Positions 3,239 through 41,955 of a DNA stretch of 64,000 nucleotides are shown one piece after another. Every line of letters begins with the position of its first letter. Position 1 is the stretch's first letter. The notes below the pieces were generated by a model. It saw only the letters and a program-made list of their open reading frames with translations, was not told the origin of the DNA and searched no databases. This stretch comes from Candidatus Limnocylindrales bacterium. GTDB taxonomy: Bacteria; Moduliflexota; Moduliflexia; Moduliflexales; JAUQPW01. Where the stretch lies: the NCBI GenBank assembly GCA_035559535.1, contig DATMBG010000033.1, forward strand, positions 61,573-125,572, written 5' to 3'. Made by a program: the position numbers and the translations under genes.

Positions 3239-3296
3239 TTGGAAACCAGGAGTTAGGAACCAGCCTATACCGGCTTCTGATTTCTGAATAACCCAG

Positions 3297-4232: not shown

Positions 4233-4280
4233 ACAATCCCTAGGTAAGAATTCTTCACCCCTTACCTCTTTCGCTTTTGT

Positions 4281-6500: not shown

Positions 6501-6662
6501 TCTTTACCTCTGTAGTGGGTCAAACGTCTCGTTTGACAATCTCGTTTGACAATATGGTAAAGAAATTAAATGGAAAGTAATCTTTAAGTCTGAATGAAGC
6601 ACTCGTTGACAAGGATTAATAGGTATCGGTAATCCGTTGACGAAGACTTTATTTCGGTTATA

Positions 6663-8426: not shown

Positions 8427-8472
8427 AGAAGAAGGGAAGCATAGGAGCTTACCCTTTCTCTGATTATCTCAC

Positions 8473-10161
8473 TTGCTCAAAATTTTGACTACCTGCCGGG
8501 TCTCTTATATCTGGCCGGTCCTTGCGCTTGCGGCTTTTGGCCTACTCCTTCATGAGTATACTTACAAAGATTTTCTCATGGATGATGCCTTTATTTCCTT
8601 TCGTTATGCGGAGAATTTGGTAACCGGGCATGGACTTGTTTTCAATCGAATCGGAGATCCCGTAGAAGGATATACCAATTTTCTTTGGACACTCCTTTTC
8701 GCCGGAGTTCTTTACCTAAAGCTGGATCCGGTCATCACCGCAAAAGTCTTTGGGAGTTTATTGAGTCTCCTGGGATTAGGGCTTACTTATCGAATAGCCC
8801 GTACCATTAATGGAAAAACGGGAGAATGGGAAGGTGGGGAAGTTGGAGAATTTGAGAATCGGAGAGAAGGGGAATCGGAGAAAGGAGGAATAGAAAATCT
8901 ATGGGCAGTTTGGCCTCTTCTCTTTCTTGCTACTTCAGGATCCTTTGCTGCCTGGGCCATGGGAGGTCTGGAGACCCACCTGGTTACGGCTTTGAATCTT
9001 CTGGCTCTACAAAGTTATTTCACGGCCCATTTTCTTACTTCCGCCATCTTTTTTACTCTGGCCTCCCTTACACGCCCTGACGCCATCCTTCTGTGGGGAG
9101 CTGTTTTCTTTATGCACCTGTTTGGCCGGGTGAAGGAGAGAAGGAAAGAAAAGGAGAAGGGAAGAATAACTTCTGATTATCTTTTCCTCCTCCTCCCTTT
9201 GGGAGGATTCAGCCTGTTTTGGATATGGCGCTGGCAGTATTACGGATCCTTGTTTCCCAATACCTTCTACATGAAAACAGGTGGTGGATGGCATCAAATA
9301 CTGGCAGGAGTTTTCTATCTACTGGATTATATCCTCTCCCAGGGTGGATTTTTTCCTTTCCTTCTTTTCTACTTTTTTAAATGGAATTATGACGCCTTTG
9401 ATCATCGGGTTATTCTATCTCAAATAGGCCTTTACACCACCTTTATTATCTTATCTGGAGGGGATTGGATGCCGCTTCATCGGTTCCTGGTTCCCCTGCT
9501 TCCCCTGCTGGCTATCTTAAACACCGCAGCCTTTAAAGGCATTTATAGGAGGCTGATTCTTTTCCTGGAAAAGATGAATCCTCCATCCAAACCGGGAAAT
9601 TGGGAAAATGGAAGAGCGAAACATGATTTATTTTCCTGTTCTTTTACTCCCTCGTCCTCCCGCTCTGCTGCCCTCCTGCTCTTTATCCTGATGGGGTTCT
9701 CCTTGATATTTCCTTTGTTGGAAACTTTAACCGAGCATCCCAGGATAATGGAAGATAGTAAGGGAGTTCAGGCCCTCGTAGAGTTTGGAAAGTGGTTGGG
9801 GAAGCAGGTTTCACCTTTTTCGCTGATAGCCGTTAACCCGGTCGGGGCTATACCCTATTATTCCCGGTTAAACACTTTAGATATGACCGGATTAACCGAT
9901 TCCCATATTGCCCATCTTAAAATGGGAGGTTTACACCAAAAATACGATAGTGCTTATATTCTTAGCTATCATCCTGATTTTATTATTCTGATAGGGCGAT
10001 ATGATCCTGAAACCCGGGTCTACCAGGCTACCTGGGTGGGGGAGGAGGATTTATTTCATAATCCAGAATTTCAGTCTGAGTACCAACCGATCCATCAACC
10101 GGTTTTCAAATATAAAAAGGAGTATAGAATCGTCCTTTTTCAGCGCAAACCCTCGGGGTAG
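8473..10161 (+). CDS. GT-C-type polytopic membrane glycosyltransferase-like protein
   Basis: 562 aa, many TM helices. Acidic first-loop motif 'DDAFISFRYAENL' of the kind used by lipid-linked-sugar glycosyltransferases. TTG start in track; N-terminus uncertain. Carries an octamer-periodic purine-rich insert at 8815-8895. Confidence 0.5.
   Translation: MLKILTTCRVSYIWPVLALAAFGLLLHEYTYKDFLMDDAFISFRYAENLVTGHGLVFNRIGDPVEGYTNFLWTLLFAGVLYLKLDPVITAKVFGSLLSLLGLGLTYRIARTINGKTGEWEGGEVGEFENRREGESEKGGIENLWAVWPLLFLATSGSFAAWAMGGLETHLVTALNLLALQSYFTAHFLTSAIFFTLASLTRPDAILLWGAVFFMHLFGRVKERRKEKEKGRITSDYLFLLLPLGGFSLFWIWRWQYYGSLFPNTFYMKTGGGWHQILAGVFYLLDYILSQGGFFPFLLFYFFKWNYDAFDHRVILSQIGLYTTFIILSGGDWMPLHRFLVPLLPLLAILNTAAFKGIYRRLILFLEKMNPPSKPGNWENGRAKHDLFSCSFTPSSSRSAALLLFILMGFSLIFPLLETLTEHPRIMEDSKGVQALVEFGKWLGKQVSPFSLIAVNPVGAIPYYSRLNTLDMTGLTDSHIAHLKMGGLHQKYDSAYILSYHPDFIILIGRYDPETRVYQATWVGEEDLFHNPEFQSEYQPIHQPVFKYKKEYRIVLFQRKPSG
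8815..8895 (+). repeat. Octamer-periodic purine-rich repeat inside a CDS, translated as a G/E/W-rich loop
   Basis: ggagaatg/ggaaggtg/gggaagtt/ggagaatt/tgagaatc/ggagagaa/ggggaatc/ggagaaag read directly; encodes GEWEGGEVGEFENRREGESEKGG. Confidence 0.6.
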
Positions 10162-10212
10162 CTTTAGAGGATTGCCTTGTTTTCAAAGGAAGTCAGGCAA
10201 ACTTCTGAGTTT

Positions 10213-10240
10213 GTAGGGGCGACCGGCCGGTCGCCCCTAC
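10213..10240. repeat. 28-bp perfect palindrome, REP-like (GTAGGGGCGACCGGCCGGTCGCCCCTAC), between convergent genes
   Basis: Self-complementary 28-mer read directly. Lies between the stop of the GT-C gene (10161, +) and the stop of the glsB-like gene (10284, -). Member of a five-copy family. Confidence 0.85.
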
Positions 10241-10283
10241 AAAAGCTACCCCCTTTTATCCCTTCTGATACGGCTCGTTGATA

Positions 10284-10553
10284 CTAGCGTACCGTACCAC
10301 GCCGGAACATATTAACAATGGCCAGCAGAATAATGGCCCCCAGGAGGGAAACCAGTAATCCCCCCAGACTAAAATTGTTTTGATTGATTGTACCTACCCC
10401 AAATATAGGGGAGAGGAGCAATCCCCCCAGAAAAGCTCCTACAATACCTACCACAATATTAAGGAAAATACCTTGTTGTGCGTCTGTACGCATAATCAGA
10501 CTGGCTATCCAACCAATGAGACCACCCACAATGAGCCAAATAATAAAGTTCAT
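10284..10553 (-). CDS. GlsB/YeaQ/YmgE family small membrane protein (transglycosylase-associated protein family)
   Basis: 89 aa, glycine-rich TM helices 'IIWLIVGGLIGWIASLIM...GIVGAFLGGLL' typical of this family. ATG preceded by GGAGGA Shine-Dalgarno. Confidence 0.8.
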   Translation of the reverse strand: MNFIIWLIVGGLIGWIASLIMRTDAQQGIFLNIVVGIVGAFLGGLLLSPIFGVGTINQNNFSLGGLLVSLLGAIILLAIVNMFRRGTVR

Positions 10554-10995
10554 ACTATCAATTCCTCCATGACTAGTTAATATAGGGTTTGACTTAAACT
10601 CCTGTTTTAACGGCTATTTCACTAAGTGGCAAAAGATATGCCAATCCCGGCTTACAAAGAACAAGGACTCGGATCTTATTACTTAGCCCTCTATACGGGA
10701 CATTATCGGAGTTCTCCAGGGAGATCAAAAAGAACAGGGGGGGTATAAGTTTACCCCGCTTAGGGGAAATCTCTGGAGGAATAGCCAGGTATTTTAAAAC
10801 TAAAAGGTAATCTTATTTTTTAATAAGAACTTATAACCAAAAATTTTAGGAGACAGGTGAATAAAAAAGATTTTTCTTGAAAATAGATTATTTTCTGCTA
10901 TTCTTTTTTTATCTTATGGTTGATAAAGACCCCTATCAGGGATAAGGGAATTTGATCCCGAAGGGCAGACTTTAAATAGCTTTTATTTTAAACAC

Positions 10996-11943
10996 GTGAT
11001 AACCCAAAAATCTGAAGAAAAAGTTCTTTCTATTTCTGCATCGAAGGACTCCCTATGGCAAAGGCTAAGAGCTTACTTTCAACGGGATACGGTGGTTGGT
11101 TATCTTTTTATAAGCCCGGCCTTGCTTCTCCTTTTGACCTTAGTCGCTTATCCCTTCTGTATCGCCCTTTATTTTAGTGTAAGCAATACCATGGTAGGAG
11201 TTCCCGGTTCTTTCGTAGGATTCCGAAATTTTATCAATCTTCTCCACAACGATATTTTCTTACAAACCTTACAAAATTCCTTTATTTTTACCAGTGTTTC
11301 GGTTTTTTTTAAAACCATACTGGGTCTTACGCTGGCCTTATTATTAAACCAACAGCTATGGTTTAAAAAGTTCATTCGGGGCGCTGTTCTCCTTCCTTTT
11401 GTAATTCCAACTGCTTTAAGTACCCTGGGATGGTGGTGGATGTTTGATTCCCTCTATAGTGTGGTGAATTGGACCCTTTATCATCTGGGTTTACTGGGAT
11501 CACCTTCTGAGCTTAACTGGTTAGGCACCCCCCACTTAGCCATGGCAGCCGTGATTATTGTAAATGTATGGAGAGGTTTACCCTTCTTTGCCATCTCTAT
11601 TCTGGCAGGCCTTGTAGCTATTCCAAGGGAGTTGTACGAAGCAGCAGAAACCGATGGAGCGGGCAAAGTGAGTAAGTTTTTCTACATTACCCTTCCTCTC
11701 CTCAGACCGGTCTTAGTCATTGTGGTCCTATTTTCAACCATCTTCACTCTAAGTGATTTTAATATTGTCTATGTGTTAACCCGTGGAGGACCTATCAATT
11801 CCACCCACCTTTTTGCTACCCTTGCAAATCAGGTAGGTCTGGTTTCCGGAAATATTGGAGAAGGAGCAGCGATCTCCCTCTTTTTATTCCCTATTTTGGT
11901 CATAATTGTCTATTTTCAATTAAAAATGATCCGAAAAGAGTAA
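10996..11943 (+). CDS. ABC transporter permease (carbohydrate-type, MalF/UgpA-like)
   Basis: Six-TM permease with the EAA-loop signature 'YEAAETDGAGKVSKFFYITLPLLRP'. GTG start in track; start uncertain. Confidence 0.8.
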   Translation: MITQKSEEKVLSISASKDSLWQRLRAYFQRDTVVGYLFISPALLLLLTLVAYPFCIALYFSVSNTMVGVPGSFVGFRNFINLLHNDIFLQTLQNSFIFTSVSVFFKTILGLTLALLLNQQLWFKKFIRGAVLLPFVIPTALSTLGWWWMFDSLYSVVNWTLYHLGLLGSPSELNWLGTPHLAMAAVIIVNVWRGLPFFAISILAGLVAIPRELYEAAETDGAGKVSKFFYITLPLLRPVLVIVVLFSTIFTLSDFNIVYVLTRGGPINSTHLFATLANQVGLVSGNIGEGAAISLFLFPILVIIVYFQLKMIRKE

Positions 11944-31735: not shown

Positions 31736-34330
31736 ATGAAAAGGAAAGTTTATGCTTTACAGGTCAGTAAAATGTTAACCTCCCTTTTTTGGGTTCTAAC
31801 AGCCGGAGCCTCCATAGGATTTTATGTCTGGATGCGGGTTAATCCGCTTGTTTTTCTAGATCAAGGAAACCTCCAGACCTATTTATATTTCAACTTCTTC
31901 CATCTTAAACTTCTCTGGTATTTAGCAGGGTGCATGTCAGGGTTAACCGTTTTTTGGCTCTTATATGCCCGGACTCTGAACCTGGCAACCGGTATAGATT
32001 TCCCCATCTGTCTGTATGCAGACGCCAAAACTTACCTGCCTTGCTATTTACTTCTTCTGAACTGGCTTAGCTTCCGCTACGTCCTTTATAAACCCGGTTA
32101 CCTTCTTCCCACCATCATTCTTATTTTTATCTTAATCCGCAAATATCGATTCTTAAGGATGATCCTCGCTCCTTTAACTTTATTTCGCTTATTCCCTGTT
32201 TCCAGGTCTCCACACTTCCGCCGGGGGATTATACCTGTTCTTATTTTTATCCTTTCTACCGGATTTTACCTGAGCCTGTCCACAAAACTTCTCTCGCCCC
32301 TCCATGTTCTGGTTGGAGATGAGCCCTCATATCTTATGATTACCGACAGCCTTTCCAAAGATGGAGATGTAAGGTTAAACAATAATTATCGAGAAAAGGC
32401 CTATTTACGTTTTTTTCCAGGTGAATATCCTCGATTTGGTAACATCGGTAAAGATGGTGGGATCTATCCTAGACACGGCATCGGACTTCCCCTTCTGCTC
32501 GTTCCGTTTTATCGCTTAGGAGATCGATTCGATCATATGGTTTTTTTTCCCAGAGCCTGTATGAATTTACTCACGGCTCTCCTGGTTACAAATTTTTATT
32601 TGCTGGCCTATGAGATGACCCGGAATCTTCCGGCTTCCTTGCTAACCACCTTTATTTTTGGGTTTACCACGCCGGTCCTTTTTTACTCTTACCAGATCTA
32701 TCCGGAAGTCCCTGCCGGATTGATTTTGTTATATGCTTTCCGAAAATGGCGCTTGTTTTATAGAAGACCCTTGCTATACCCGCTTTGCATAGGCGGGGCC
32801 ATTTCTCTTCTACCCTGGTTTGGAGTGAAGTACCTTATTTTATCCCTGGTACTGTTTCTTTTAGCCGGGTTCAGTTTGATACGATATCGGACTCATTTTT
32901 CTTATTTATCTGTTCTCCTTTTTTTATTTCCTATTATCCTGTCGGGGGTACTTCATGCCTGGTTTACCTATTCCATGTACAAAACCATATCTCCAACCGC
33001 CATGTATGGACAGGCCTCTCCGATTCCAGGACAAAAGCCGGGGTCTTATTCAGTCCTGGGGGATTTAAAATTTAAATTAAAACGAGGTCTTATGGGAATT
33101 CCTGGGGTTTTCCTGGATCAAAGGATCGGTCTTCTTTTTCATAGCCCCCTTTACTTCTTTTCGCTGGCCGGTATTCTAGCCCTATGGAGAAAGAAAGCCT
33201 ATCGACCTCAGATGTTCGCTTTACTTTTTATCTTTCTGAGCTACATCTTTTTTTATACCTCCCAACCGACAGCAGGATGGGGCGGATACAGTGTCATGAA
33301 TCGCCCGGTCATAGCCGTTATCTGGTGTTTAGGTATTTTGATGCTCTTTGGTTTGAAATCCTTCCGGGGGCCCCTGGCAACAGCCCTTCGAAACGGTTTC
33401 TTCGTTTTTAGTTTTCTTTTGGTTGGCCTCTATTTAAAAGAGCCTTTACTGCTTTATCACCAGATGGCTTATCGTTATCAAGAACTTCGAAGTAACCTCC
33501 TCTATACCTATAGTAGTGCCTTTCTAGATCTGACTTCCCTGTTTCCTGCCATGATGGGTACAGATAAAAATCCTAAAGTAACCCTCTTCTGGGCAGGTGT
33601 TACGCTAACTTTGCTGGCACTTTGTTACTATGAATCGAAAAAAAGAGTATGGGAGTATGGGAGTGTGGGAGTGTGGGAGTATGGAGGCAGGGAGGTAGGG
33701 AGGTATGGAAGTATAAGAAATAGAACTCCCATACCCCCATACCCCCATACCCCCATCCTCCTACTCTTGCCCATAGTGTTAGGCTTTCTTTTCCTGATGG
33801 GAGGTTGGATTTCAGTTAAGGAGATTCTCCCCAAGACGCAAAATGCTACCGGCTATGAAATGTTTTTCACTTTACCCTGGACGGGAAAGGGTCTGATAGG
33901 TAAATATTATGATAATGAAGCCTGGGAAGGAGTTCCTCGGGTTATTCGACGAGACCCCTCACTCGACTTTTCTTTTATACAACATCTGGATATGTTCCGG
34001 GTCAAGGTAGGAAATTTTCCTCTCCCGGTGAATCTTTCTTCCTTTTCTGTGGACTGGTCTGGATATCTGATAGTCCCTTCGTCAGGAAATTATATCTTCC
34101 AGGTAATCACTTCCCCACGGGCTTTCTTTTATCTGTCTATAGATGGGGATCCCATGGTTGTAGATGGGAAAACTCCCAGGGAATTGACCCAGGGGGATCA
34201 CTCCATTCGGATTCGGTTGAAGGAACTACATCCTTCCAATTCCCAACTCATCCTGTATTGGATACGACCCGACGGTCAAAAAGAAATTATTCCGGCGGAA
34301 GCTTTCCGGCCTTATCAAGGAATAAACTAA
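31736..34330 (+). CDS. GT-C-type membrane glycosyltransferase (ArnT/PMT-like) with C-terminal PA14 domain
   Basis: 864 aa, ATG start. Many TM helices with first-loop motif 'GDEPSYLMITDSL' paralogous to the 1164-aa protein. C-terminal PA14-like region 'GKYYDNEAWEGVP...VDWSGYLIVPSSGNYIFQVITSPRAFFYLSIDGDPMVVDG'. Contains the repeat at 33645-33760. Confidence 0.6.
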   Translation: MKRKVYALQVSKMLTSLFWVLTAGASIGFYVWMRVNPLVFLDQGNLQTYLYFNFFHLKLLWYLAGCMSGLTVFWLLYARTLNLATGIDFPICLYADAKTYLPCYLLLLNWLSFRYVLYKPGYLLPTIILIFILIRKYRFLRMILAPLTLFRLFPVSRSPHFRRGIIPVLIFILSTGFYLSLSTKLLSPLHVLVGDEPSYLMITDSLSKDGDVRLNNNYREKAYLRFFPGEYPRFGNIGKDGGIYPRHGIGLPLLLVPFYRLGDRFDHMVFFPRACMNLLTALLVTNFYLLAYEMTRNLPASLLTTFIFGFTTPVLFYSYQIYPEVPAGLILLYAFRKWRLFYRRPLLYPLCIGGAISLLPWFGVKYLILSLVLFLLAGFSLIRYRTHFSYLSVLLFLFPIILSGVLHAWFTYSMYKTISPTAMYGQASPIPGQKPGSYSVLGDLKFKLKRGLMGIPGVFLDQRIGLLFHSPLYFFSLAGILALWRKKAYRPQMFALLFIFLSYIFFYTSQPTAGWGGYSVMNRPVIAVIWCLGILMLFGLKSFRGPLATALRNGFFVFSFLLVGLYLKEPLLLYHQMAYRYQELRSNLLYTYSSAFLDLTSLFPAMMGTDKNPKVTLFWAGVTLTLLALCYYESKKRVWEYGSVGVWEYGGREVGRYGSIRNRTPIPPYPHTPILLLLPIVLGFLFLMGGWISVKEILPKTQNATGYEMFFTLPWTGKGLIGKYYDNEAWEGVPRVIRRDPSLDFSFIQHLDMFRVKVGNFPLPVNLSSFSVDWSGYLIVPSSGNYIFQVITSPRAFFYLSIDGDPMVVDGKTPRELTQGDHSIRIRLKELHPSNSQLILYWIRPDGQKEIIPAEAFRPYQGIN
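33645..33760 (+). repeat. Imperfect octamer tandem repeat (about 9 x AGTRTGGG-like) followed by inverted CCCATACC units, inside the CDS
   Basis: gagtatgggagtatgggagtgtgggagtgtgggagtatggaggcagggaggtagggaggtatgg ... cccatacccccatacccccatacccccatcc read directly; translated in frame as VWEYGSVGVWEYGGREVGRYGS...PIPPYPHTP. Confidence 0.7.
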
Positions 34331-35514
34331 GAAAAGAAATTCTGGCGCTTCTTCAAATTATCCAGGGTCTTGATGATAAAGCTCATCATGACGAGCTGGA
34401 CTCCCGTCAGGAATAGAGTAGCTCCGGTGAGGATATAGGACCAGTGAACATGAATATGCTGGGTAGTTACATACTCATAAATGGTATTTTTATTCAAAAC
34501 GATACTACTTAAAATGGAAAGCCAGCCGATCAGACCTATTTTTTTCATGATCGTTGGTTTAAAAATATATCGGCTCCAGAAACTACGCTGATGAATCTCT
34601 TTTCGGTGCATGATGGACAAAATATAGTTCGAAAAGGCTCCAAAGGTCATGGTGTTGATACCTGTTATAAACAGAACCATAATGGTAAAGAGCCGATAAA
34701 TTTCCCAATCCTCTACTTCCCGCAATTTGATATAGTAAGTCACCGGCATAATTCCCAACAATACCCCTATGAAAATCATCAGTAATCCCATCATTCCGTA
34801 AAACTTGAGCGGGTTATAAAGGTTGGCGGTATGGAGGATGGTTGAGAGGAATCGGAGTCCATCTTGGATAACATGAAGTTTAGATTTTCCTATCCGTTCC
34901 TTGTATTCAATAGGAACTTCTACGACTTTCATTCCTTCATGCAAGGCATGGGTACTCATGGCAGGAGTTAAATCGAGCCCATCGGGTAAAGGATATAATC
35001 GGGTTAAAATAGATCGTTTGAAGACCCGCATCCCACTGGCTGAGTCTGTTATTTTATGCTCGACGATCCAGCTCAAAAGTCTGGCAAAAAACCTGTTACC
35101 GATCTGTCGAATGAAAGGCATACCGGTTTTCTTTTCAATCATTCGGGAGCCGATGACCATATCGGCGTTTGTTTCTCTTAAGACCCTGCAAAGGTCTAAG
35201 AAGGCCCGGGCGGGGTAAGTCCCATCGGCATCCAGGAATCCCATATACTCCCCTCGTGCTTTATCAAACCCAGTTTTCAGAGCAGATCCGTATCCTAAAT
35301 TTTTCCTATGATGGATAAGGACCACATCTGGATAACCCTGAACAATTTCACCTGTTCGATCCTGGGAGCCGTCGTTTACAATGATAATTTCTACCTCGGA
35401 GATGCCAATTTTTGTCTCTAGAATTTCCTTTTTAACCGCCAGAACTTCCAGAATCGTGGCTCCTATAGAATTTTCTTCATTATACGCTGGAATCACTATA
35501 GAAAGTGTGGGCAT
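34327..35514 (-). CDS. GT2-family polyprenyl-phosphate glycosyltransferase (DPM1/ArnC-like) with C-terminal TM helices
   Basis: ATG at 35514 preceded by GGGAGGAGG. 'LSIVIPAYNEE', 'VNDGSQDRT', 'FLDADGTYP' GT-A motifs. About 100-aa hydrophobic C-terminal segment. Confidence 0.8.
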   Translation of the reverse strand: MPTLSIVIPAYNEENSIGATILEVLAVKKEILETKIGISEVEIIIVNDGSQDRTGEIVQGYPDVVLIHHRKNLGYGSALKTGFDKARGEYMGFLDADGTYPARAFLDLCRVLRETNADMVIGSRMIEKKTGMPFIRQIGNRFFARLLSWIVEHKITDSASGMRVFKRSILTRLYPLPDGLDLTPAMSTHALHEGMKVVEVPIEYKERIGKSKLHVIQDGLRFLSTILHTANLYNPLKFYGMMGLLMIFIGVLLGIMPVTYYIKLREVEDWEIYRLFTIMVLFITGINTMTFGAFSNYILSIMHRKEIHQRSFWSRYIFKPTIMKKIGLIGWLSILSSIVLNKNTIYEYVTTQHIHVHWSYILTGATLFLTGVQLVMMSFIIKTLDNLKKRQNFFS

Positions 35515-35767
35515 ACGCTTCCCCTCCTCCCTTCTGCTTACCCATGAATCAAAAGTTTCTGTTTCTTTTGTGCAGTTTTTATACCAGCTTTGATAGGGAA
35601 TGCCCAAATTCGATTGCCCAAATTTTTAGTATTGTTTCCTTTATAAGTTCAACTAAGCTTAACAATTTTTATTGACATCTTTCTCATCCAGTGTAAAAAA
35701 TTAAAGTATAAATGTAAAACATTAACTTTACCTAAATATAGGTTTTCGTGACTTTTAGGAAAGTCTT

Positions 35768-36238
35768 ATGAAAAATTTAATAAAATCCTTCCTGTCCTTT
35801 CTTATAACAACGATTTTTTTCGGAGTGGCCACGAGCGAGGAAGTTACGGCACATGGGTATTGGAGTAGGTATTCTTATCCTCCTTGTCCTTCACCGCCTC
35901 CTTGGGGAATGATTCCTCCTTGCCCACCAGGGTTTGGAAGATTGGGATATTCCTGTCCTCCTCCATCTGCTCGATATCTTCGGCCCCCACGGTATTCCCC
36001 CTATGGGGAGTATTTTTCTAAACCAGGCCCCCCCAGGCCTCCTCTCTCCCCTTACGGATATTTTAATGAAGAGGGGGTTTGGGTTCCTTTTTCCAGTTCT
36101 CCAGGGTTTAAGGGTAAGGGTCTTAAAAGTGAGAAAAAAGGAGTTACCTCTTCTAAAAAATCCTCGAAAAAGAAATCATCTTCTGGTAAAGGCTCCAAAT
36201 CTTATAAAGGCTCCAAATCTTATCAGATAGCTCCCTAA
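35768..36238 (+). CDS. Secreted low-complexity protein (Pro/Tyr-rich core, Lys/Ser-rich tail)
   Basis: Signal peptide 'LSFLITTIFFGVATS'. Pro-rich repeats (PPCPSPPPWGMIPPCPPGFG...). C-terminal KKSSKKKSSSGKGSKSYKGSKSYQ encoded by a short tandem DNA repeat (ggctccaaatcttat x2). Confidence 0.5.
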   Translation: MKNLIKSFLSFLITTIFFGVATSEEVTAHGYWSRYSYPPCPSPPPWGMIPPCPPGFGRLGYSCPPPSARYLRPPRYSPYGEYFSKPGPPRPPLSPYGYFNEEGVWVPFSSSPGFKGKGLKSEKKGVTSSKKSSKKKSSSGKGSKSYKGSKSYQIAP

Positions 36239-37047
36239 GGTTCCTCTTCTTGCTGCTGTATTTCCCGAATTCTTCGCCAAAATTCAGAGGCTTCTGCGGC
36301 AATCCCACTCCAGTTTCGGACCTCTTCGTGAAAACCTTCTTTTAAAACCTCGAAAAACTCATCCCTTAACTCAGAATCGGTGGGATCTATATTTGAAAAA
36401 ATCTCATAGCCGGGTAATTCTTTGTAACGCCAGTAATTCAAATTGGGGATATAGAAGTGTTTAATCCAACCCAGTAGCATATCCATCCAGGATTCACAAT
36501 AATAGCGAAGATGAATGTGGGGTTTTCCTAAAAACCAATCGGCCTGTTGAATCATTTCATTTTCGTAAAACCGGCACTGGTTATGATCTTCAACATAAAC
36601 GATTACCCCATCCAACTCCGGATAATCCTCCATACGCAGGAAAACGAAGCTCACCCTATCATCCTCCTCATACAAGAACCGACCGTCAAAAAGACGAAAC
36701 TCAATTCCATAAAGATTAACCTGGGGGATTGAAAATAAATCCTCATGGATCTTTACTAATTTTTGTCTCAGAGGACCTGCAACGCGAAGTTCAAATCCCA
36801 GAGGGTCGACTTCCTGGGGTAAACTTTCGTAGACTCTGATGAGATTGGAACTCGAAGGAGGAGTGCTAAATAAAGAGCCACTTAGAAGAATATTTCCTTG
36901 GATCGTGTGATCGAAATGCCGGATAGGCGGGGGAACCTCAAAGTAGCCATGAGAAAGTTCTGCTAATTCCTCGAGTTTCCAGCACAGATTTTCACGAACA
37001 AATAACTCAGAGCATTGACCCGACCAACTGACGATGACAGATGGCAT
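36235..37047 (-). CDS. Hypothetical protein, third gene of the dual-ATPase cassette
   Basis: 270 aa, ATG start, 92 bp downstream of the 1006-aa gene on the same strand; no recognisable motif. Confidence 0.5.
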   Translation of the reverse strand: MPSVIVSWSGQCSELFVRENLCWKLEELAELSHGYFEVPPPIRHFDHTIQGNILLSGSLFSTPPSSSNLIRVYESLPQEVDPLGFELRVAGPLRQKLVKIHEDLFSIPQVNLYGIEFRLFDGRFLYEEDDRVSFVFLRMEDYPELDGVIVYVEDHNQCRFYENEMIQQADWFLGKPHIHLRYYCESWMDMLLGWIKHFYIPNLNYWRYKELPGYEIFSNIDPTDSELRDEFFEVLKEGFHEEVRNWSGIAAEASEFWRRIREIQQQEEEP

Positions 37048-37139
37048 ATATTTTGACTCCTTTCCAGGGTGAAAGTAACCGCATAGAGCTGTTCTATGTC
37101 CTGGGTCATTAAAAATAGGACAGCTTTATGGGATGGTTT

Positions 37140-40100
37140 CTATTGATTATGCATAGCCATTTCAATTTCGGTCTTCGTGACCAGTGGGCCTTGAAGCCTC
37201 TGAAGAGGAACGCTCCCCCCAATCAGCATATCTCCATGCCCGATCAGGTATTCTGCACCCGGCGTATCCAGGATAATGGTACTATTGGCGGCGCTGGTAA
37301 CTTTAAGAGCCACTTTAAGTTGGAGATTGGCTTTGATAATCGGCGTGACTATCCGAGCATCTGGCCGCTGGGTAGACAGAATCAGGTGAATGCCTGCGGC
37401 ACGGCCTTTTTGTCCGAGGCGCTGAATGGAGGTTTCCAATTCTGTCCGGGTATCTTTGTCTGCCATGAGATCTGCATATTCATCAATCATAATGACCTGA
37501 TGGCTTAAAGATCCGCCCAGTTGATTATAGGCGTGGATATCCGATACCCCCTTTTTTTCAAACGTACGATAACGCTCTTCCATCTCATCGACCAGTTGGT
37601 GCAGTTTTTCAAGGGCCGATTCGGTATCCATCAAGATAGATCCGGAAAGATGGGGGAGGGAGGCAAGGTCCATAAAACCCACCCGCTTAGGGTCAATCAA
37701 AATCAATCGAACTTCGGTAGGTTTTGCATTTAGAGCCAGGCCTACGGCACTGGCTTTCAGAAAAATGCTTTTGCCGCTTCCTGAGGTGCCCCCTATCAGC
37801 ATACCACTCATGGTGGGATCGCTGAGATTCGCCCAAACAATCGAGCCGTCAATAGACATACCCAGGGGAAATGCAACTTTAGAAGGAGGTCGGTTACGTT
37901 GTCCCTTTTGCCACACCTCTCCCAGGGTAAGGGGAACCCGGACTTTCCGAGGTATATCCACACTCACATAACCCGCCTGGGGCTGAATCAGAGGAGCAAC
38001 CTGTAAACCCAAAGCCACCTGCAGATTTTCGGCTTGATTGACCAGCTTCTTAACGGTAACACCTTGATCCAGCCTGGGTTTGATCTTATATCGGATAAAT
38101 CGCGGCCCGGCTATGTAACCTACAGGCTCAACGGGTAGCTTTAACGTATCCAAAGCCTGAATAAGGGCCCTCAAGCCTTGCTCCGCTTCCTGGGTCGTTT
38201 CTCTGGAATTGGGATCTGAAACAGAAGACCGGGAAGTCTCAGATTTTTCCCCAGGAGATGTTCCCAAGACTTCCTCGAAGCCTTGAAACCCTGAGTGCTT
38301 CTGACCATGGAGTTTCTCCCCTATAAACGTAGCAAACTCGTTCGCTGTGATCGATTTCACCCGATTATCGAAACCGACCAGGGTTACATCTCCTTCCTTA
38401 ACCGCATAACTGAGCAGGGCCAGGGCATACCATCGGGCGGCCTGCTCCGAATCTAAAATAATCACGTGACCCCCCAGATCTTTAAAAAGTTGAAGTTTCT
38501 CATTGGTTGCCTTCCACTGGGGAGGGGGTGGAATAGGACAGCGGGCATCTCGAATATAAAAAGCTTTCCCTGAGGGATGAGACTTTAAAAACTCAATCCC
38601 CTTCAGAAGACAGGCCCCTACCGCCATAGGATTCTGCTCCACATCGATCATAAAAATCACGGGAACCTCTGAGGAGGAAGAAACCCGGAGAGTACCTGTA
38701 AAGTCAATATACTTTTCTTTACCCTCCGGACGCTGTAAAGATTCAACTTGAAAGGAACCCGCCTGAAACGTTTCCGCAGTACGGGATTTTACAGATTGGC
38801 CTGACTTTCCGATTTTAGTGGGTCCATAGCTGAGATAAACCTCTAAAGCTCGTCTTAACCGGCCTCGATCGGGTTGATAACGATCAAAATCTTGTAAAAT
38901 CGTTCGATATTGATTTTCAAATTCTTCCTCGAGGGTTTGAGAAGGAGAAACTTCGACCGAAGGCCCTTGATCCAATATTTGCCTCAACCGCTTATTGGCC
39001 TCAGCAATGACCAACCGGGGGATATACAACTGTTTTCTAAAGGTTTTATATAATTCTTCCCGGTCAAAGGGAAAAAACGGGTTGGTTTGATCTTCTCCAA
39101 GTACCGAAGCCAGACGATTTTGGATAATTGCCATAGCCTGATCTGCCGTACAACCCCGCAGCTCAAATCGGTTCGTCTCAAGACGCGTGATAATATGCTG
39201 GTTTAACTTTAATCGGAATTTTCCCTCCCATTCTCCCCCCCGGAAGCAGACAATAGGCAACATGGCTTTGGCTTTATCTATCAGGAATTCCAACATCTTC
39301 CCCAGGGCATATATTTTCCCTTCGGTTTCTAAATTCTCTAAGCGGTCGAAACAAATGATCAGGGTTTGACGGTAACGAGCCAGCAAAAGGCCCAGGGAAA
39401 TTAGAATATCCCGTGCTTCTTGCTCAAGGAGGTTGGAACGACCGGTTTGGTCCTCCGATACTTGAAAGCGATCTGATACCTGGAGTAAAGCTGCATCGGC
39501 CTGATCCAGAACGTAACCTTTAAGCCAGTTTAAAGCCGCTACCCGCTTACTCGGAATCCGATATTGGAACAAAACCTTTAAAAAACTGGTGGAAATCTCC
39601 GGGTAGGCCCTACTCAACAGATCGAGGGCTTTATCTTCAACCTCTTTAAACCGATGGGGAATAATATATTTAAAAATCAAAGTCCCCAGCATATTCCTTT
39701 GTTTATCCCGCGTGGACCCATACTTCTGGACTACTTCCCGGTAAATTTCGTCTATAATCTTCTCCAGTTGTGTTACCGGAGAAGCTGCATGTATCGGATA
39801 ACAAAGATTAACGATGATTTCCCTCAGAAGATAGCGATAGGTCTGTTCCGGATCCTCGATGGGTTGAATGTAGGCGAAGGAGAGACCTGGTGTGCCCGGT
39901 TCCGACTGTATCTGTTCCGTATACTGAAGGATTTTACCGATCAGATGCGTTTTACCGCTGCCGACTTCTCCGAGTACTAGCGCTCCACAGTTGAGACCCG
40001 GGTTTTGGGATTTCTGTTTAATAAGCTGGCAAAGTCCCTTGAAAGCATGTTCATTAATGGAAGGAACATCCGGATAGACTCCTTCCCGGGGATCTCCAAC

Positions 40101-40160
40101 ACTGGAGGAAGTAAAGGGATTCCTCCATCTTAAAATTTCAAGTTTCTCCTCGGTCGTCAT
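37140..40160 (-). CDS. Soluble dual-NTPase: N-terminal P-loop NTPase (Walker A GEVGSGKTHL) fused to a C-terminal FtsK/SpoIIIE-type motor domain
   Basis: 1006 aa, no TM helices. N-terminal 'ALVLGEVGSGKTHLIGKI' with a distant acidic motif 'LIICFDRLE'. C-terminal FtsK-family motifs: Walker A 'GGTSGSGKS', Walker B 'VIMIDEYADLM', 'LILSTQRP', 'GHGDML'. Start overlaps the upstream gene stop (ATGA). Confidence 0.75.
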   Translation of the reverse strand: MTTEEKLEILRWRNPFTSSSVGDPREGVYPDVPSINEHAFKGLCQLIKQKSQNPGLNCGALVLGEVGSGKTHLIGKILQYTEQIQSEPGTPGLSFAYIQPIEDPEQTYRYLLREIIVNLCYPIHAASPVTQLEKIIDEIYREVVQKYGSTRDKQRNMLGTLIFKYIIPHRFKEVEDKALDLLSRAYPEISTSFLKVLFQYRIPSKRVAALNWLKGYVLDQADAALLQVSDRFQVSEDQTGRSNLLEQEARDILISLGLLLARYRQTLIICFDRLENLETEGKIYALGKMLEFLIDKAKAMLPIVCFRGGEWEGKFRLKLNQHIITRLETNRFELRGCTADQAMAIIQNRLASVLGEDQTNPFFPFDREELYKTFRKQLYIPRLVIAEANKRLRQILDQGPSVEVSPSQTLEEEFENQYRTILQDFDRYQPDRGRLRRALEVYLSYGPTKIGKSGQSVKSRTAETFQAGSFQVESLQRPEGKEKYIDFTGTLRVSSSSEVPVIFMIDVEQNPMAVGACLLKGIEFLKSHPSGKAFYIRDARCPIPPPPQWKATNEKLQLFKDLGGHVIILDSEQAARWYALALLSYAVKEGDVTLVGFDNRVKSITANEFATFIGEKLHGQKHSGFQGFEEVLGTSPGEKSETSRSSVSDPNSRETTQEAEQGLRALIQALDTLKLPVEPVGYIAGPRFIRYKIKPRLDQGVTVKKLVNQAENLQVALGLQVAPLIQPQAGYVSVDIPRKVRVPLTLGEVWQKGQRNRPPSKVAFPLGMSIDGSIVWANLSDPTMSGMLIGGTSGSGKSIFLKASAVGLALNAKPTEVRLILIDPKRVGFMDLASLPHLSGSILMDTESALEKLHQLVDEMEERYRTFEKKGVSDIHAYNQLGGSLSHQVIMIDEYADLMADKDTRTELETSIQRLGQKGRAAGIHLILSTQRPDARIVTPIIKANLQLKVALKVTSAANSTIILDTPGAEYLIGHGDMLIGGSVPLQRLQGPLVTKTEIEMAMHNQ

Positions 40161-40921
40161 CTTATTTCCTCACCTCTCCAACTTAAGGTTATATAAAGCA
40201 TCCCGCTCTCATCCATAAAAGAGTTTTTTATCTCCGCTTCGGTCATCGTTGAAGGATCTCCTCCATGGAGTTCTACGGCATAATCGGCCATCAACTCCGT
40301 AAGAACCCTATCAAACCGTTCCCGAGGCCAGCGAAGATACTCGCGAATTTGATGAATCGGAATAAAACTACGCCCCTTACCAACCCGGTAATAAGCTTGC
40401 TTAAAAGCCGTCCGATCATCTGTAGGGGCTTCTTTGTCTATCCCAGGTATCGGAACTTTATCAGAAATCTTGAGAGAAACCGAATGATCTTCTTTAAGAA
40501 TACAAACAACAAAACTTTTCTCCAGGAGATGGTTGAGGGCCTTGAGGTAATTTTTCTTGAGCACGGGAAGCTCTCGACCCAATTGTCTGGAAGATAAGCC
40601 CGGTTTTTGTCTGATTTTGTTTAGAATAAGTTCTTCCACCGATTTTCTGTAACCAATGTAGGTAGACCTCGCCGCCTGGTAAATTTGTAAACCATCGCCC
40701 AAATGGGAAGTCAATTTAATCAGGATCTCTGAATTTGTCGCCTCCCTGGAGAGACCCAAGTGTTTCCGCGAGGTGGAAGAAATTCCGTCTACAATTTGTT
40801 TAACCGTAAGGTAATCCCGGTTTTTCTTTTTTAATAAATCCAGAATTTCTTTTTCGATATGGGACGGAGTATAATTTTCCATGTCAGGTAAAAATTTTCC
40901 GTGAATTATTCTCTTTTTCAT
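40157..40921 (-). CDS. Hypothetical protein, first gene of the dual-ATPase cassette
   Basis: 254-aa ORF whose stop overlaps the start of the 1006-aa gene by 4 bp. No motif recognised; a possible helix-turn-helix is a guess only. Confidence 0.5.
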   Translation of the reverse strand: MKKRIIHGKFLPDMENYTPSHIEKEILDLLKKKNRDYLTVKQIVDGISSTSRKHLGLSREATNSEILIKLTSHLGDGLQIYQAARSTYIGYRKSVEELILNKIRQKPGLSSRQLGRELPVLKKNYLKALNHLLEKSFVVCILKEDHSVSLKISDKVPIPGIDKEAPTDDRTAFKQAYYRVGKGRSFIPIHQIREYLRWPRERFDRVLTELMADYAVELHGGDPSTMTEAEIKNSFMDESGMLYITLSWRGEEIR

Positions 40922-41112
40922 GGGATTAACGGTATCCCAACAGGGTTTAGAACCGTCTAGAATCTCAAAATAGCTTTGTATCTCTTTCAGGATAAAAAAG
41001 CAAGCAGATTCTTACGGGGTAAATTTTCCTAAAAATATTTTGACGTCCTGCAGGTTCAGGGTGTAAGATAGGAATTGCTTGTAATTACCGGAAACTTAGC
41101 AGGACGACCCCC

Positions 41113-41955
41113 ATGGAACATATATCCGATACGGCCCGTTGGGTTGCTGTATATCGTGCGATGGAGACGGAAAGGACGGATGCCCATTTTCGAGACCCCT
41201 ATGCACGTCTCTTAGCCGGGGAACAGGGGGAAAGGATCGTTCGAACTTTACCACGAGGTATGTCCAGCGCCTGGGCCGTAATTGTACGTACCTGTGTATT
41301 TGACGAAATGATCCTGTGGGCTGTTCAGACTCAACAGGTGGATACTGTTTTGAATCTCGCCTCAGGTCTCGATACCCGGCCTTACCGGCTCCCCTTACCC
41401 GCTTCATTAAGATGGATCGAAGTGGATTTACCCGATATCCTTACCTATAAGGAAAAAAAGCTGGTCGATATAAGGCCGGCCTGTTCTTTGGAAATTGTAA
41501 AGATGGACCTGATGGACGTCACCGCGCGGCGGGCTCTTTTCAACCAGATAGGTGCCCTCTCTCGACGTGTACTTGTGGTAAGTGAAGGTCTTAGCCCCTA
41601 TCTCACCTCCGATCAGATTGCTTCCCTGGCCCAGGATCTTTCCACCCAACCCACTTTCCGGTGGTGGTTACTGGATTTAATATCTCCCCTTGCGCTTCAA
41701 CGAATTCAGAAATTATGGAAGAAGCAACTTGGTACAGGTCGTATTGCCTTTCACTTCGCTCCGGTGGAAGGGGCTACTTTTTTCAATCCGTATGGCTGGA
41801 AGGTCCTGGAAGTTCGATCTTCGGTAGAAGAAGGTCGTCGCCTGAAACGAGAAATGCCCTTTGCATGGTTCTGGCGGTTTCTGGTTAAGATATTTAAGGA
41901 GAAACAAGAAATTTTTCGTAATACCTATACCTTTGTCCTTTTGGAACAAATATGA
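41113..41955 (+). CDS. Class I SAM-dependent methyltransferase (leucine carboxyl methyltransferase / TcmP-like family)
   Basis: ATG start. 'VDTVLNLASGLDTRPYRL' SAM-binding region and family-typical N-terminus 'ARWVAVYRAMETERTDAHFRDPYA'. Confidence 0.7.
   Translation: MEHISDTARWVAVYRAMETERTDAHFRDPYARLLAGEQGERIVRTLPRGMSSAWAVIVRTCVFDEMILWAVQTQQVDTVLNLASGLDTRPYRLPLPASLRWIEVDLPDILTYKEKKLVDIRPACSLEIVKMDLMDVTARRALFNQIGALSRRVLVVSEGLSPYLTSDQIASLAQDLSTQPTFRWWLLDLISPLALQRIQKLWKKQLGTGRIAFHFAPVEGATFFNPYGWKVLEVRSSVEEGRRLKREMPFAWFWRFLVKIFKEKQEIFRNTYTFVLLEQI

What the first reader, a model, noticed from the sequence alone, without database searches (positions are those of the whole stretch)
36235..40921. 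Candidate novel system: three-gene cassette centred on a soluble protein fusing a P-loop NTPase to an FtsK/SpoIIIE-type motor
The 1006-aa protein has two separate nucleotide-binding modules. The N-terminal one has Walker A GEVGSGKTHL and a distant acidic motif, as seen in large P-loop NTPases with insertions. The C-terminal one has the full FtsK/SpoIIIE motif set (GGTSGSGKS, VIMIDEYADLM, LILSTQRP, GHGDML). It lacks the membrane anchor of canonical FtsK. It is translationally coupled (ATGA overlap) to an upstream 254-aa unknown and followed by a 270-aa unknown on the same strand. Neighbouring genes are unrelated housekeeping or secreted functions, so this looks like an autonomous module. FtsK-like DNA-pumping ATPases coupled to a second NTPase and small partners fit a DNA-targeting function such as anti-phage or anti-plasmid defence, or a remnant conjugation or segregation module. 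Its flanks carry hairpin-rich regions (35608-35767; 40922-41112).
Basis: partly seen in the sequence, partly recalled or inferred. Interest (0 to 1): 0.78.

Follow-up and report, generated by a model that had tools for sequence, protein, structure and literature searches.

The report
ORC-like loader fused to FtsK pump
This is a two-gene (not three-gene) module, a triple winged-helix DNA-binding protein plus an ORC/Cdc6-like ATPase fused to an FtsK DNA pump, that belongs to a class of putative anti-invader "HerA/FtsK capture" systems predicted by computation in 2024 and never tested; this copy has lost the nuclease its closest relatives carry.

Summary
The three ORFs, all quoted motifs and the ATGA overlap are real. 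The "hairpin-rich flanks" are not above chance.

The conserved unit is two genes, not three. A (about 240 aa, three winged helices) is translationally coupled to B. It accompanies every homologue of B's N-terminal 635 residues in more than 30 loci (Desulfobacterales, SAR324, Magnetococcales, Tectimicrobiota). Gene C travels with them only in relatives more than 90% identical.

[quoted passage not shown] Its C-terminal part is an intact FtsK α+β motor with no membrane anchor and no γ domain.

This matches the Orc/CDC6–HerA/FtsK "capture systems" predicted by Rakesh, Aravind & Krishnan (NAR 2024), so the kind is not new.

The closest relatives are split into three genes: A, Orc–REase-like–wHTH, and Cas4-like nuclease–FtsK. 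The window's B is colinear with the last two minus about 370 residues, so it has lost the wHTH and the nuclease. It is still under strong purifying selection (dN/dS 0.07–0.10). Nuclease-less fusions recur in deep branches.

In other relatives the A+Orc core is instead followed by a caspase–peptidoglycan-binding gene.

A defence role is inferred, not shown.

The parts
40157..40921 (-). Gene A: partner protein of 254 aa (possibly 241 aa from Met14 at 40882) made of three tandem winged-helix domains. Its stop overlaps the start of B (ATGA).
37140..40160 (-). Gene B: 1006-aa soluble fusion protein with the order Orc/Cdc6-like AAA+, REase-like domain, linker, FtsK-alpha, FtsK motor.
   Evidence: dN/dS against two relatives is 0.07-0.10.
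38961..40052 (-). B residues about 37-400: Orc/Cdc6-clade AAA+ ATPase with lid. Walker A is GEVGSGKTHL (K70; nt 39942-39971). Walker B is the non-canonical CFDRLEN (D272, E275; nt 39333-39353).
38391..38765 (-). B residues about 466-590: α/β domain with strand-strand-strand-helix-strand-helix-strand-helix topology and motifs YID486, ID506-V-E508-Q and YIR537-DAR540-C. It is probably the catalytically unreliable or inactive restriction-endonuclease-like insert ('iREase') of the published class.
   Evidence: Secondary structure from the model. Conservation. The acidic residues are lost in deep-branching fused members. No sequence match to PDB chains or to the Cas4-like domain. The fold assignment rests on topology and on the literature description and was not confirmed by a structure search of this domain alone.
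38211..38255 (-). B residues about 636-650: fusion junction in a low-complexity linker. Upstream of it B is colinear with the Orc-like protein of split relatives; downstream it is colinear with residues 293-658 of their nuclease-FtsK protein.
   Evidence: BLASTP of B against the two proteins of L039 gives 57% identity over B 2-676 and 76% identity over B 639-1006.
37950..38207 (-). B residues 652-737: FtsK alpha domain.
   Evidence: Pfam PF17854, E 3.2e-8, above its cut-off. It aligns to the E. coli FtsK structure 2IUS.
37140..37919 (-). B residues 748-1006: FtsK/SpoIIIE beta (RecA-like) motor. Walker A is GGTSGSGKS (K797), Walker B is IMIDEY (D893, E894), and LILSTQRP and GHGDML are present. 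The protein ends before any gamma (KOPS-reading) domain.
   Evidence: Pfam PF01580, E 2.5e-36. phmmer against 2IUS gives E 1.6e-48 with the motifs aligned. The NCBIfam FtsK match ends at profile position 1253 of 1355. Motif positions are. dN/dS is 0.04-0.06.
37082..37130 (.). 16-nt imperfect inverted repeat in the B-C spacer. It may be a transcript-end or regulatory hairpin separating C from the A-B operon.
   Evidence: 88% complementary arms. The RNA fold is -21.3 kcal/mol, z = -2.67, with no T-run after it.
36235..37047 (-). Gene C: 270-aa conserved hypothetical protein. It is a lineage-specific neighbour and not part of the conserved module.
   Evidence: It lies beside A-B only in L005-L007, which are 91-94% identical to the window. 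The 35 homologues share no contig with A or B other than that of the >90%-identical relative. Two homologue contexts that were examined are unrelated. There is no Pfam or PDB match even with a profile. dN/dS is 0.08-0.09, so it is a real gene.

Best explanation
The locus is a two-gene conflict module of the Orc/Cdc6-HerA/FtsK 'capture system' type.

Proposed mechanism, all inferred.
1. Protein A reads a DNA feature with its three winged helices.
2. A recruits, or licenses ATP-dependent oligomerisation of, the Orc/Cdc6-like AAA+ part of B on that DNA. ORC/Cdc6, TnsC and MuB assemble on DNA in this way.
3. Each B protomer carries an FtsK alpha+beta motor, so oligomerisation brings the motors together into a ring around the duplex. 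A plus the Orc-like module therefore replaces the missing gamma/KOPS loader of cellular FtsK.
4. The ring then pumps the bound DNA, presumably invading or replicating foreign DNA.

In the closest relatives the pumped DNA would be fed to a Cas4/RecB-type nuclease fused to the motor. The window's protein is a secondary in-frame fusion that deleted that nuclease and the Orc protein's C-terminal winged helix. In this copy the outcome must be one of three things: nuclease-independent (stripping, stalling or mis-segregating the target), dependent on a nuclease supplied in trans, or a changed function.

Shown here: the domain identities, the A-B coupling and co-conservation, the deletion-fusion origin, purifying selection, and the variable third modules.

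Inferred: DNA binding by A, loading of the motor by the Orc-like module, and the anti-invader role.
For: - Domain identities are established for the FtsK alpha+beta motor with intact motifs, the Orc/Cdc6-clade AAA+ and the three winged helices of A.
- A and BN (the N-terminal ~635-residue Orc/Cdc6-like part of B, which in most relatives is a protein of its own) co-occur. All BN loci among the 27 genome loci and the extra metagenome loci carry an A-type partner, usually overlapping by 1-4 nt.
- The architecture matches the published class: Orc/CDC6, an iREase insert, HerA/FtsK with FtsK-alpha, and a partner of 2-4 wHTH domains.
- The closest relatives (57-61% identity in BN, 72-76% in FtsK) are split systems. 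Their third gene carries a complete Cas4/RecB motif set: D169, E184-x-K186, Q199xxxY203 and four Cys.
- The third module varies behind the same core. It is a caspase plus PG_binding_1 gene in 7 loci, a nuclease-FtsK gene in 6 (L008, L015, L025, L026, L038, L039; the L038 copy appears truncated), and a fused FtsK in the window and 8 or more other lineages. This sensor-plus-swappable-effector pattern is typical of immune systems.
- Genomic contexts differ between loci, and paralogues occur in tandem in Desulfonema magnum and Desulfobacterales HSG2.
- The fused gene is maintained: dN/dS is 0.07-0.10, comparable to the flanking housekeeping genes.
Against: - No experiment exists for any member of this class.
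- The window copy has no nuclease. The acidic residues of the REase-like domain are not conserved across the family.
- The window neighbourhood is not a defence island. Among 148 neighbour proteins of related loci only a few hit PADLOC families.
- A and BN are fairly well conserved (45-55% identity across orders), not the 'rapidly evolving' wHTH protein described in the paper.
- BN's Walker B is D-R-L-E rather than D-E, so its hydrolysis competence is uncertain.
- The REase-like fold of residues 466-590 was not verified by a structure search.
Confidence: 0.6

Rival explanations
1. The module is a remnant or working part of a mobile element: a replication-initiation, partition or DNA-transfer apparatus. 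On this reading the ORC-like initiator and the wHTH specificity protein mark an origin or a clt-like site, and the FtsK-like pump moves the element's DNA, as Streptomyces TraB does. It would not be defence.
For: - Orc/Cdc6, TnsC and MuB are the nearest folds, and these act in replication initiation and transposition.
- FtsK-like pumps drive conjugation. The NCBIfam plasmid TraB model hits at E 3.9e-6.
- The module appears in varied genomic contexts and in several copies per genome.
- The published description calls these 'mobile gene neighbourhoods'.
Against: - No integrase, transposase, relaxase, primase or other element genes lie beside the module in the window or recurrently in the 27 loci.
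- There are no terminal repeats or flanking hairpins.
- No relatives occur in 2.9 million viral contigs, and A and BN have no PHROG hits.
- The TraB score of 25.7 bits is far below the 800-bit cut-off.
- Swapping the third gene for a caspase-PGB protein or for a Cas4 nuclease-FtsK protein does not fit a transfer or replication role.
Confidence: 0.13
2. The window copy is a functionally disarmed derivative. Having lost the nuclease and the wHTH, it no longer restricts DNA, and it is kept for another role such as a regulator, a DNA-organising factor or a decoy.
For: - The deletion-fusion removed about 370 residues, including the only clearly active nuclease.
- In one close relative (L038) the third gene appears truncated to 385 aa, which suggests the effector gene can decay in this clade.
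Against: - Purifying selection is strong on both halves, and strongest on the FtsK motor (0.04-0.06).
- All ATPase motifs are intact.
- Nuclease-less Orc-FtsK fusions with an A partner recur in deep, divergent lineages: SAR324, Magnetococcus and five further 50%-identity clusters. The architecture is therefore a stable working form, not an accident.
Confidence: 0.15
3. It is a cellular housekeeping factor for chromosome handling or cell division, for example in filamentous or multicellular bacteria: a soluble FtsK paralogue with its own loader.
For: - The FtsK part is very close to bona fide FtsK (E 1.6e-48 to 2IUS) and has the FtsK-alpha domain.
- The family is enriched in filamentous or multicellular Desulfobacterales such as Desulfonema and Magnetomorum.
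- Sequence conservation is relatively high.
Against: - The distribution is patchy and rare: 209 clusters at E<=1e-30 among 1.84 billion representatives.
- There is no conserved chromosomal context, and paralogues occur in tandem.
- Most family members have no FtsK at all, or carry a caspase instead.
- The protein has no membrane anchor and no gamma domain for XerCD/KOPS.
Confidence: 0.07

Closest known systems
Orc/CDC6-HerA/FtsK 'capture systems' (Rakesh, Aravind & Krishnan, Nucleic Acids Res 2024, PMC10853773; restated in PMC12839542)
   Same: [quoted passage not shown] It has a HerA/FtsK motor preceded by an FtsK-alpha domain 'captured' from cellular FtsK. It has a separate partner protein of 2-4 winged helices. 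The domains are spread over one or several polypeptides, and it occurs in varied neighbourhoods. Its closest split relatives also have the active REase and the C-terminal wHTH.
   Different: The window copy lacks the active REase and the Orc protein's C-terminal wHTH, both of which are listed as usual core domains of the class. The A partner here is not fast-evolving and shows no detectable sequence link to DndG, SspB or FokI. The same A+Orc core is also found with caspase-PGB genes, an association not mentioned in the sections of that paper I read. The class itself is a computational prediction with no experimental test.
Cellular FtsK/SpoIIIE DNA translocase
   Same: The alpha and beta motor domains are present with Walker A, Walker B and the QRP and GxGDML motifs. 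The match to the E. coli FtsK motor structure 2IUS has E 1.6e-48.
   Different: There are no N-terminal membrane helices, no long linker and no gamma domain for KOPS/XerD. The motor is fused to an Orc-like ATPase. The protein is rare, patchy in distribution and not syntenic. Its NCBIfam FtsK score is 165 bits against a cut-off of 1566.
DndFGH / SspFGH restriction modules (DndH/SspH with a C-terminal HerA/FtsK domain; DndG triple wHTH)
   Same: A translocase of the FtsK family is teamed with a triple-winged-helix DNA-reading subunit. The PADLOC SspH models hit B at E 4.5e-68.
   Different: The SspH match covers only the last ~300 of 1766 profile positions, i.e. the FtsK domain. There is no DndF/SspF kinase, no SWI2/SNF2-derived domain, no REase in the same protein, and no phosphorothioate modification genes nearby.
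ORC/Cdc6-MCM loading, and the AAA+ target selectors TnsC (Tn7/CAST) and MuB
   Different: No MCM, transposase or TniQ is present. The machine being positioned is covalently attached (FtsK). Walker B is D-R-L-E.
BREX BrxC and BREX-related capture (BRC) systems (PMC12839542)
   Different: No PglZ, PglX, BrxB/iSTAND, GNAT or TGT genes occur in the window or in the related loci.

Membership tests
Orc/CDC6-HerA/FtsK capture systems (PMC10853773) | Orc/CDC6-clade AAA+ ATPase | tested here: met
Orc/CDC6-HerA/FtsK capture systems (PMC10853773) | Inactive REase domain inserted after the AAA+ core | tested here: inconclusive
   An α/β domain at residues 466-590 has an REase-compatible topology, with D486 and the D506-x-E508 motif but no Lys. 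These residues are lost in deep family members, which fits an inactive domain. Sequence profiles found nothing. No structure search of this domain alone was possible.
Orc/CDC6-HerA/FtsK capture systems (PMC10853773) | C-terminal wHTH of the Orc/CDC6 protein, following the iREase | tested here: not met
   The window protein passes from the REase-like domain through a linker directly into FtsK-alpha. The ~80-residue tail, whose sequence pattern looks wHTH-like (not modelled), is present in split relatives (L015, L039) and is deleted here.
Orc/CDC6-HerA/FtsK capture systems (PMC10853773) | An active REase-fold nuclease in the operon | tested here: not met
   No nuclease domain is found in A, B or C. 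The closest split relatives carry a Cas4/PDDEXK_1 domain with the full D, ExK, QxxxY and 4-Cys motif set, fused to FtsK.
Orc/CDC6-HerA/FtsK capture systems (PMC10853773) | HerA/FtsK ATPase, in one subset preceded by FtsK-alpha | tested here: met
   PF17854 and PF01580 both score above their cut-offs. The match to 2IUS has E 1.6e-48.
Orc/CDC6-HerA/FtsK capture systems (PMC10853773) | [quoted passage not shown] | tested here: met
   A has three winged helices. The L008 homologue has extra wHTH repeats. Homology to DndG, SspB or FokI specifically was not detected.
Cellular FtsK/SpoIIIE | N-terminal membrane domain, gamma domain, and near-universal single-copy presence | tested here: not met
   There is no hydrophobic segment. 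The match ends before the gamma domain and scores 165 bits against the 1566-bit cut-off. The distribution is rare and patchy, and contexts are non-syntenic.
DndFGH / SspFGH | Full DndH/SspH architecture with DndF/G or SspF/G partners | tested here: not met
   The PADLOC SspH hits cover only the C-terminal FtsK portion, positions 1444-1758 of 1766. A and C have no Dnd or Ssp hits.
STAND NTPases (NACHT/NB-ARC, Avs-like) | STAND NTPase domain above family thresholds, plus a C-terminal repeat or sensor region | tested here: not met
Type VII secretion EccC/EssC | Multi-FtsK-domain membrane ATPase reaching the family cut-off | tested here: not met
   The scores are 109 bits against a 509-bit cut-off and 107 against 778. 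B has a single FtsK domain and no TM segment.
Experimentally validated anti-phage system | Protection shown on phage or plasmid challenge | not testable with these tools
   No paper in the searchable library reports a test of this class.

The most novel reading that the evidence does not exclude
Orc-FtsK fusions with a triple-wHTH partner and no nuclease are a working, recurrently evolved immune or conflict architecture in which the DNA pump itself is the effector. An ORC-like loader, guided by A, assembles an FtsK ring on foreign DNA. The pump then neutralises that DNA without cutting it, for example by stripping replication or packaging proteins, stalling forks, or mis-partitioning it. More broadly, the A + Orc-like pair may be a general DNA-sensing switch that can drive effectors as different as a nuclease-pump and a caspase-like protease.
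Probability: 0.22. Interest if true: 0.78.

Novelty: new variant of a known kind. Interest (0 to 1): 0.5.

Why it matters
The class this locus belongs to is only a computational prediction, so any well-defined, compact member is a candidate for the first experimental test. This copy has two genes and 3.8 kb.

Three results here go beyond what I found in the literature.
- The triple-wHTH protein and the Orc-like ATPase form an obligate, translationally coupled core.
- That core is followed by alternative third modules: a Cas4 nuclease-FtsK protein, a fused FtsK, or a caspase-PGB protein. This is the signature of a sensor with swappable effectors.
- Nuclease-less Orc-FtsK fusions are maintained by selection and arose more than once.

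If such a fusion protects cells, it would show a DNA translocase acting as an immune effector without a nuclease. It would also show an ORC-like module acting as a loader for an FtsK ring, a bacterial parallel to ORC/Cdc6 loading MCM.

If the fusion does nothing, the split relatives become the systems to test.

Tried and rejected
- **C as a third component.** C has 35 homologues, and none shares a contig with A or B apart from relatives more than 90% identical. Two contexts that I examined are unrelated: one has AcrB next door, and the other has 225-, 931- and 232-aa unknown proteins that do not resemble A or B. No Pfam or PDB match appears even with a profile. Rejected as part of the module; its function stays unknown.
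- **Hairpin-rich flanks as element boundaries.** Rejected.
- **Phage origin.** There are no relatives in IMG/VR contigs. A, BN and C have no PHROG hits; only the FtsK part hits phage FtsK-like morons.
- **Defence-island test.** PADLOC on 148 neighbour proteins gave scattered hits: one type II RM pair, a dGTPase, an AriA-like ATPase and PDC candidates. I had no background rate to compare against, so the result is inconclusive.
- **Specific accessions from the 2024 paper.** The held supplement contains no sequence lists. I therefore could not verify that this exact family was in their data set.
- **Organism identity.** The window has no rRNA, tRNA or Rfam hits. The nearest genome record is an unclassified 'bacterium' MAG (L007).


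Full report
**1. Observation**

The window carries three minus-strand ORFs at the stated coordinates: A (40921..40157, 254 aa), B (40160..37140, 1006 aa) and C (37047..36235, 270 aa).
- The A stop and B start overlap as ATGA, with a Shine-Dalgarno-like GGAGAGGTGAGG just upstream.
- Pfam finds FtsK_alpha (652-737) and FtsK_SpoIIIE (748-933, E 2.5e-36). At the N-terminus it finds only sub-threshold AAA_16, AAA_22 and NACHT hits.
- B has no hydrophobic segment of membrane-helix strength.
- Its match to the NCBIfam FtsK model stops at position 1253 of 1355, before the gamma domain.
- The 'hairpin-rich flanks' do not hold up. They contain only 9-12-nt AT-rich inverted repeats. Terminator-like and promoter-like sites across 35400-41400 are fewer than in shuffled controls.
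- The B-C spacer holds a 16-nt imperfect inverted repeat (RNA fold z = -2.67) and a separate Shine-Dalgarno sequence for C.
- The surrounding genes are ordinary: GT2 glycosyltransferase, PA14 membrane protein, LCM methyltransferase, NUDIX hydrolase and a beta-helix protein.

**2. What is conserved**

Below, BN denotes the N-terminal ~635-residue Orc/Cdc6-like part of B, which in most relatives is encoded as a protein of its own.

The homologue search with B showed that its first ~635 residues form a well-defined family. The members are mostly stand-alone proteins of 590-780 aa, 43-61% identical to B, from Desulfonema, Desulfococcus, Desulfatirhabdium, Candidatus Magnetomorum, Tectimicrobiota and others. 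Full-length fusions are a small minority.

The exhaustive profile search counts 209 clusters (50% identity) at E<=1e-30 and 1032 at E<=1e-10 among 1.84 billion representatives. The family is real but rare.

Protein A has its own family of ~240-aa proteins with no Pfam domain.
- In every locus I could inspect (27 genome loci plus metagenome contigs) an A-type gene lies immediately upstream of the BN gene, usually overlapping it.
- In three cases (L009, L017 and the first copy in L008) a ~140-aa protein follows BN instead. It corresponds to A's third winged helix only.

Gene C behaves differently.
- It accompanies A-B only in the three relatives that are 91-94% identical to the window.
- Its 35 homologues sit on other contigs.
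- The two contexts I looked at are unrelated to A and B.

**3. Domain identities**

An AlphaFold model of B residues 1-640, built on 53 homologues (pLDDT 88), shows three parts: an AAA+ core with lid (about 37-400), a helical connector, and an α/β domain (about 466-590).
- Walker A (GxxGxGKT) is invariant. Walker B is an invariant but non-canonical CFD-R-L-E-N.
- The α/β domain has the strand-strand-strand-helix-strand order of restriction-endonuclease folds. D486 precedes strand 2, and D506-V-E508-Q lies at the end of strand 3, with no lysine.
- These acidic residues are replaced in many deep-branching members. That fits the 'inactive REase' of the literature.
- I could not confirm the fold by a search with this domain alone.

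The C-terminal 366 residues of B align to the E. coli FtsK motor structure 2IUS at E 1.6e-48, with Walker A, Walker B, the QRP segment and GxGDML all intact.

**4. Relatives reveal the system's logic and the origin of the fusion**

Three kinds of gene follow the A-BN pair.
- In four genome loci (L008, L015, L025, L026) and in the two closest metagenome relatives (L038, L039), BN is ~710 aa. It carries an extra ~80-residue C-terminal tail whose sequence pattern looks wHTH-like; this was not modelled.
  - It is followed by an overlapping gene of ~655 aa that encodes a Cas4/PD-(D/E)xK nuclease, FtsK-alpha and FtsK.
  - The nuclease has the complete RecB/Cas4 motif set: D169, E184-x-K186, Q199xxxY203 and four cysteines.
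  - In L038 the third gene is only 385 aa and appears truncated.
- In seven loci the next gene is instead a ~360-aa caspase (Peptidase_C14, with the His and Cys motifs present) fused to PG_binding_1. It lies 4-94 bp downstream on the same strand.
- In the window, in L001-L003, in the SAR324 loci L030 and L031, and in five further divergent clusters, the FtsK part is fused directly to BN and no nuclease is present.

BLASTP shows that the window's B is colinear with both proteins of L039.
- B matches the L039 Orc-like protein at 57% identity, an alignment reported over B 2-676.
- B 639-1006 matches residues 293-658 of the L039 nuclease-FtsK protein at 76% identity.
- The join lies in a low-complexity linker at about residues 636-650.

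The window protein thus equals the two neighbouring proteins minus the wHTH tail and the whole nuclease, about 370 residues in all.

Neighbour-joining trees of the Orc part and of the FtsK part agree with each other.
- The window and L005 are sister to the split L039 and L038 and nest inside the split clade.
- The other fusions branch deep.
- These trees have no bootstrap support and use midpoint rooting. The identity values (76% against 54-55%) point the same way.

The fusion in the window's lineage is therefore secondary, and the fused state has arisen, or been regained, more than once.

The fusion is not decaying. Against two relatives, dN/dS is 0.07-0.10 for B (0.09 for the Orc part, 0.04-0.06 for the FtsK part). 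The flanking NUDIX and LCM genes give 0.06 and 0.17.

**5. Comparison with what is known**

PADLOC hits to SspH and mad8 cover only the FtsK domain. NCBIfam hits to FtsK, EccC, EssC and TraB are far below their cut-offs.

The literature search led to Rakesh, Aravind & Krishnan (NAR 2024, PMC10853773). They describe, from comparative genomics alone, 'HerA/FtsK capture systems'.
- These domains are arranged in one or several polypeptides.
- They propose that the Orc/Cdc6 part localises the apparatus on DNA, while HerA/FtsK intercepts and pumps invader DNA to the nuclease.
- A 2026 paper from the same group restates this.

The split relatives of the window locus fit that description feature for feature. 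The window copy fits except for the two deleted domains.

I found no experimental test of any member. I also found no mention, in the sections I read, of the caspase-PGB association. I could not check whether this exact family is in their data set, because the held supplement has no sequence lists.

**6. Mechanism**

Best explanation (confidence about 0.6).
- A reads DNA.
- The Orc-like module oligomerises on it in an ATP-dependent way.
- That assembly nucleates a ring of the covalently attached FtsK motors. This substitutes for the missing gamma/KOPS loading device.
- The ring then pumps the DNA.

In split relatives the DNA would be fed to the Cas4-like nuclease. In caspase relatives the same sensor core would trigger a protease, which suggests an abortive-infection type of outcome. 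In the window copy the output is nuclease-independent, supplied in trans, or altered.

The domain assignments, the coupling, the co-conservation, the deletion origin and the selection are shown. DNA binding, loading and the anti-invader role are inferred.

Arguments against a strong defence claim:
- The window is not a defence island.
- Neighbours of related loci show only scattered PADLOC hits.
- A and BN are conserved rather than fast-evolving.

Rivals:
- A mobile-element replication or transfer module. No element genes, boundaries or viral relatives were found.
- A disarmed derivative. Selection and the recurrence of the fusion argue against it.
- A housekeeping FtsK paralogue. Rarity, tandem paralogues and variable context argue against it.

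**7. Verdict**

However, the unit is two genes, the flanks are unremarkable, and the kind of system has already been predicted in the literature.

What is new is the variant. It is a selected, secondarily fused, nuclease-less Orc-FtsK protein with its triple-wHTH partner. Around it is a family picture of one sensor core with interchangeable FtsK-nuclease, FtsK-only and caspase modules.

Interest is moderate (0.5). It would rise if the nuclease-free form were shown to protect cells.

Noticed in passing
L010:9972-11024, L011:9014-10141, L012:5506-6582, L016:5908-7026, L020:3360-4400, L027:4445-5533, L029:7004-8110: In seven Desulfobacterales loci the A + Orc-like pair is followed, 4-94 bp downstream on the same strand, by a ~360-aa protein. 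It has a caspase domain (Peptidase_C14, with the HFSGHG and DCCHSG motifs) fused to PG_binding_1, and no signal peptide. This looks like an alternative effector for the same core. I did not find it described in the papers I read.
   Followed up: partly
L009:7959-8378, L017:7092-7517, L008:4119-4538: Some Orc-like genes lack an upstream A. They are followed instead by a ~140-aa protein homologous only to A's third (C-terminal) winged helix, which is the most conserved part of A. This hints that the third domain is the one that contacts the ATPase.
   Followed up: partly
L010 (Desulfonema magnum chromosome, 1187-3992 and 7229-11024); L008 (Desulfobacterales HSG2, 2027-4541 and 4548-9904): Paralogous copies of the module lie within a few kb of each other and carry different third components. 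In L008 the A homologue is 407 aa, with extra copies of the first winged helix, and an AAA_15/AAA_21 (AriA/PtuA-like) ATPase gene follows the module.
   Followed up: partly
L038:2614-3771: In the closest split relative (61% identical Orc part) the nuclease-FtsK gene is called as only 385 aa and starts after a ~300-bp gap. It may be a decaying effector gene in the same clade where the window's deletion-fusion arose.
   Followed up: no
window 36235-37047 (-): Gene C belongs to a family of ~35 proteins of 240-310 aa with no Pfam, PDB, PADLOC, NCBIfam or PHROG match. It has a conserved HLRYYCE-W core and is under purifying selection (dN/dS 0.08-0.09). Its function is unknown.
   Followed up: partly
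window 35768-36238 (+): A 156-aa predicted secreted protein has a signal-peptide-like N-terminus, a Pro/Tyr-rich middle and a Lys/Ser-rich tail. Its 3' end overlaps the 3' end of gene C by 4 nt, convergently. A ~150-aa gene occupies the same position in the 92%-identical relative L005.
   Followed up: no
window 31736-34330 (+): An 864-aa polytopic membrane protein ends in a PA14 domain. It contains an odd short internal repeat (WEYGSVGVWEYGGREVGRYGS) between the membrane part and the C-terminal part.
   Followed up: no
window 40882-40921: Met14 of A aligns with the first Met of most homologues, and the first 20 residues are modelled with low confidence. The annotated 254-aa start may be 13 codons too far upstream.
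   Followed up: partly
window 1-64000: No tRNA, rRNA or any Rfam family reaches threshold in 64 kb. The nearest genome record is an unclassified 'bacterium' MAG (JAUQPW010000119.1), so the organism remains unidentified.
   Followed up: partly
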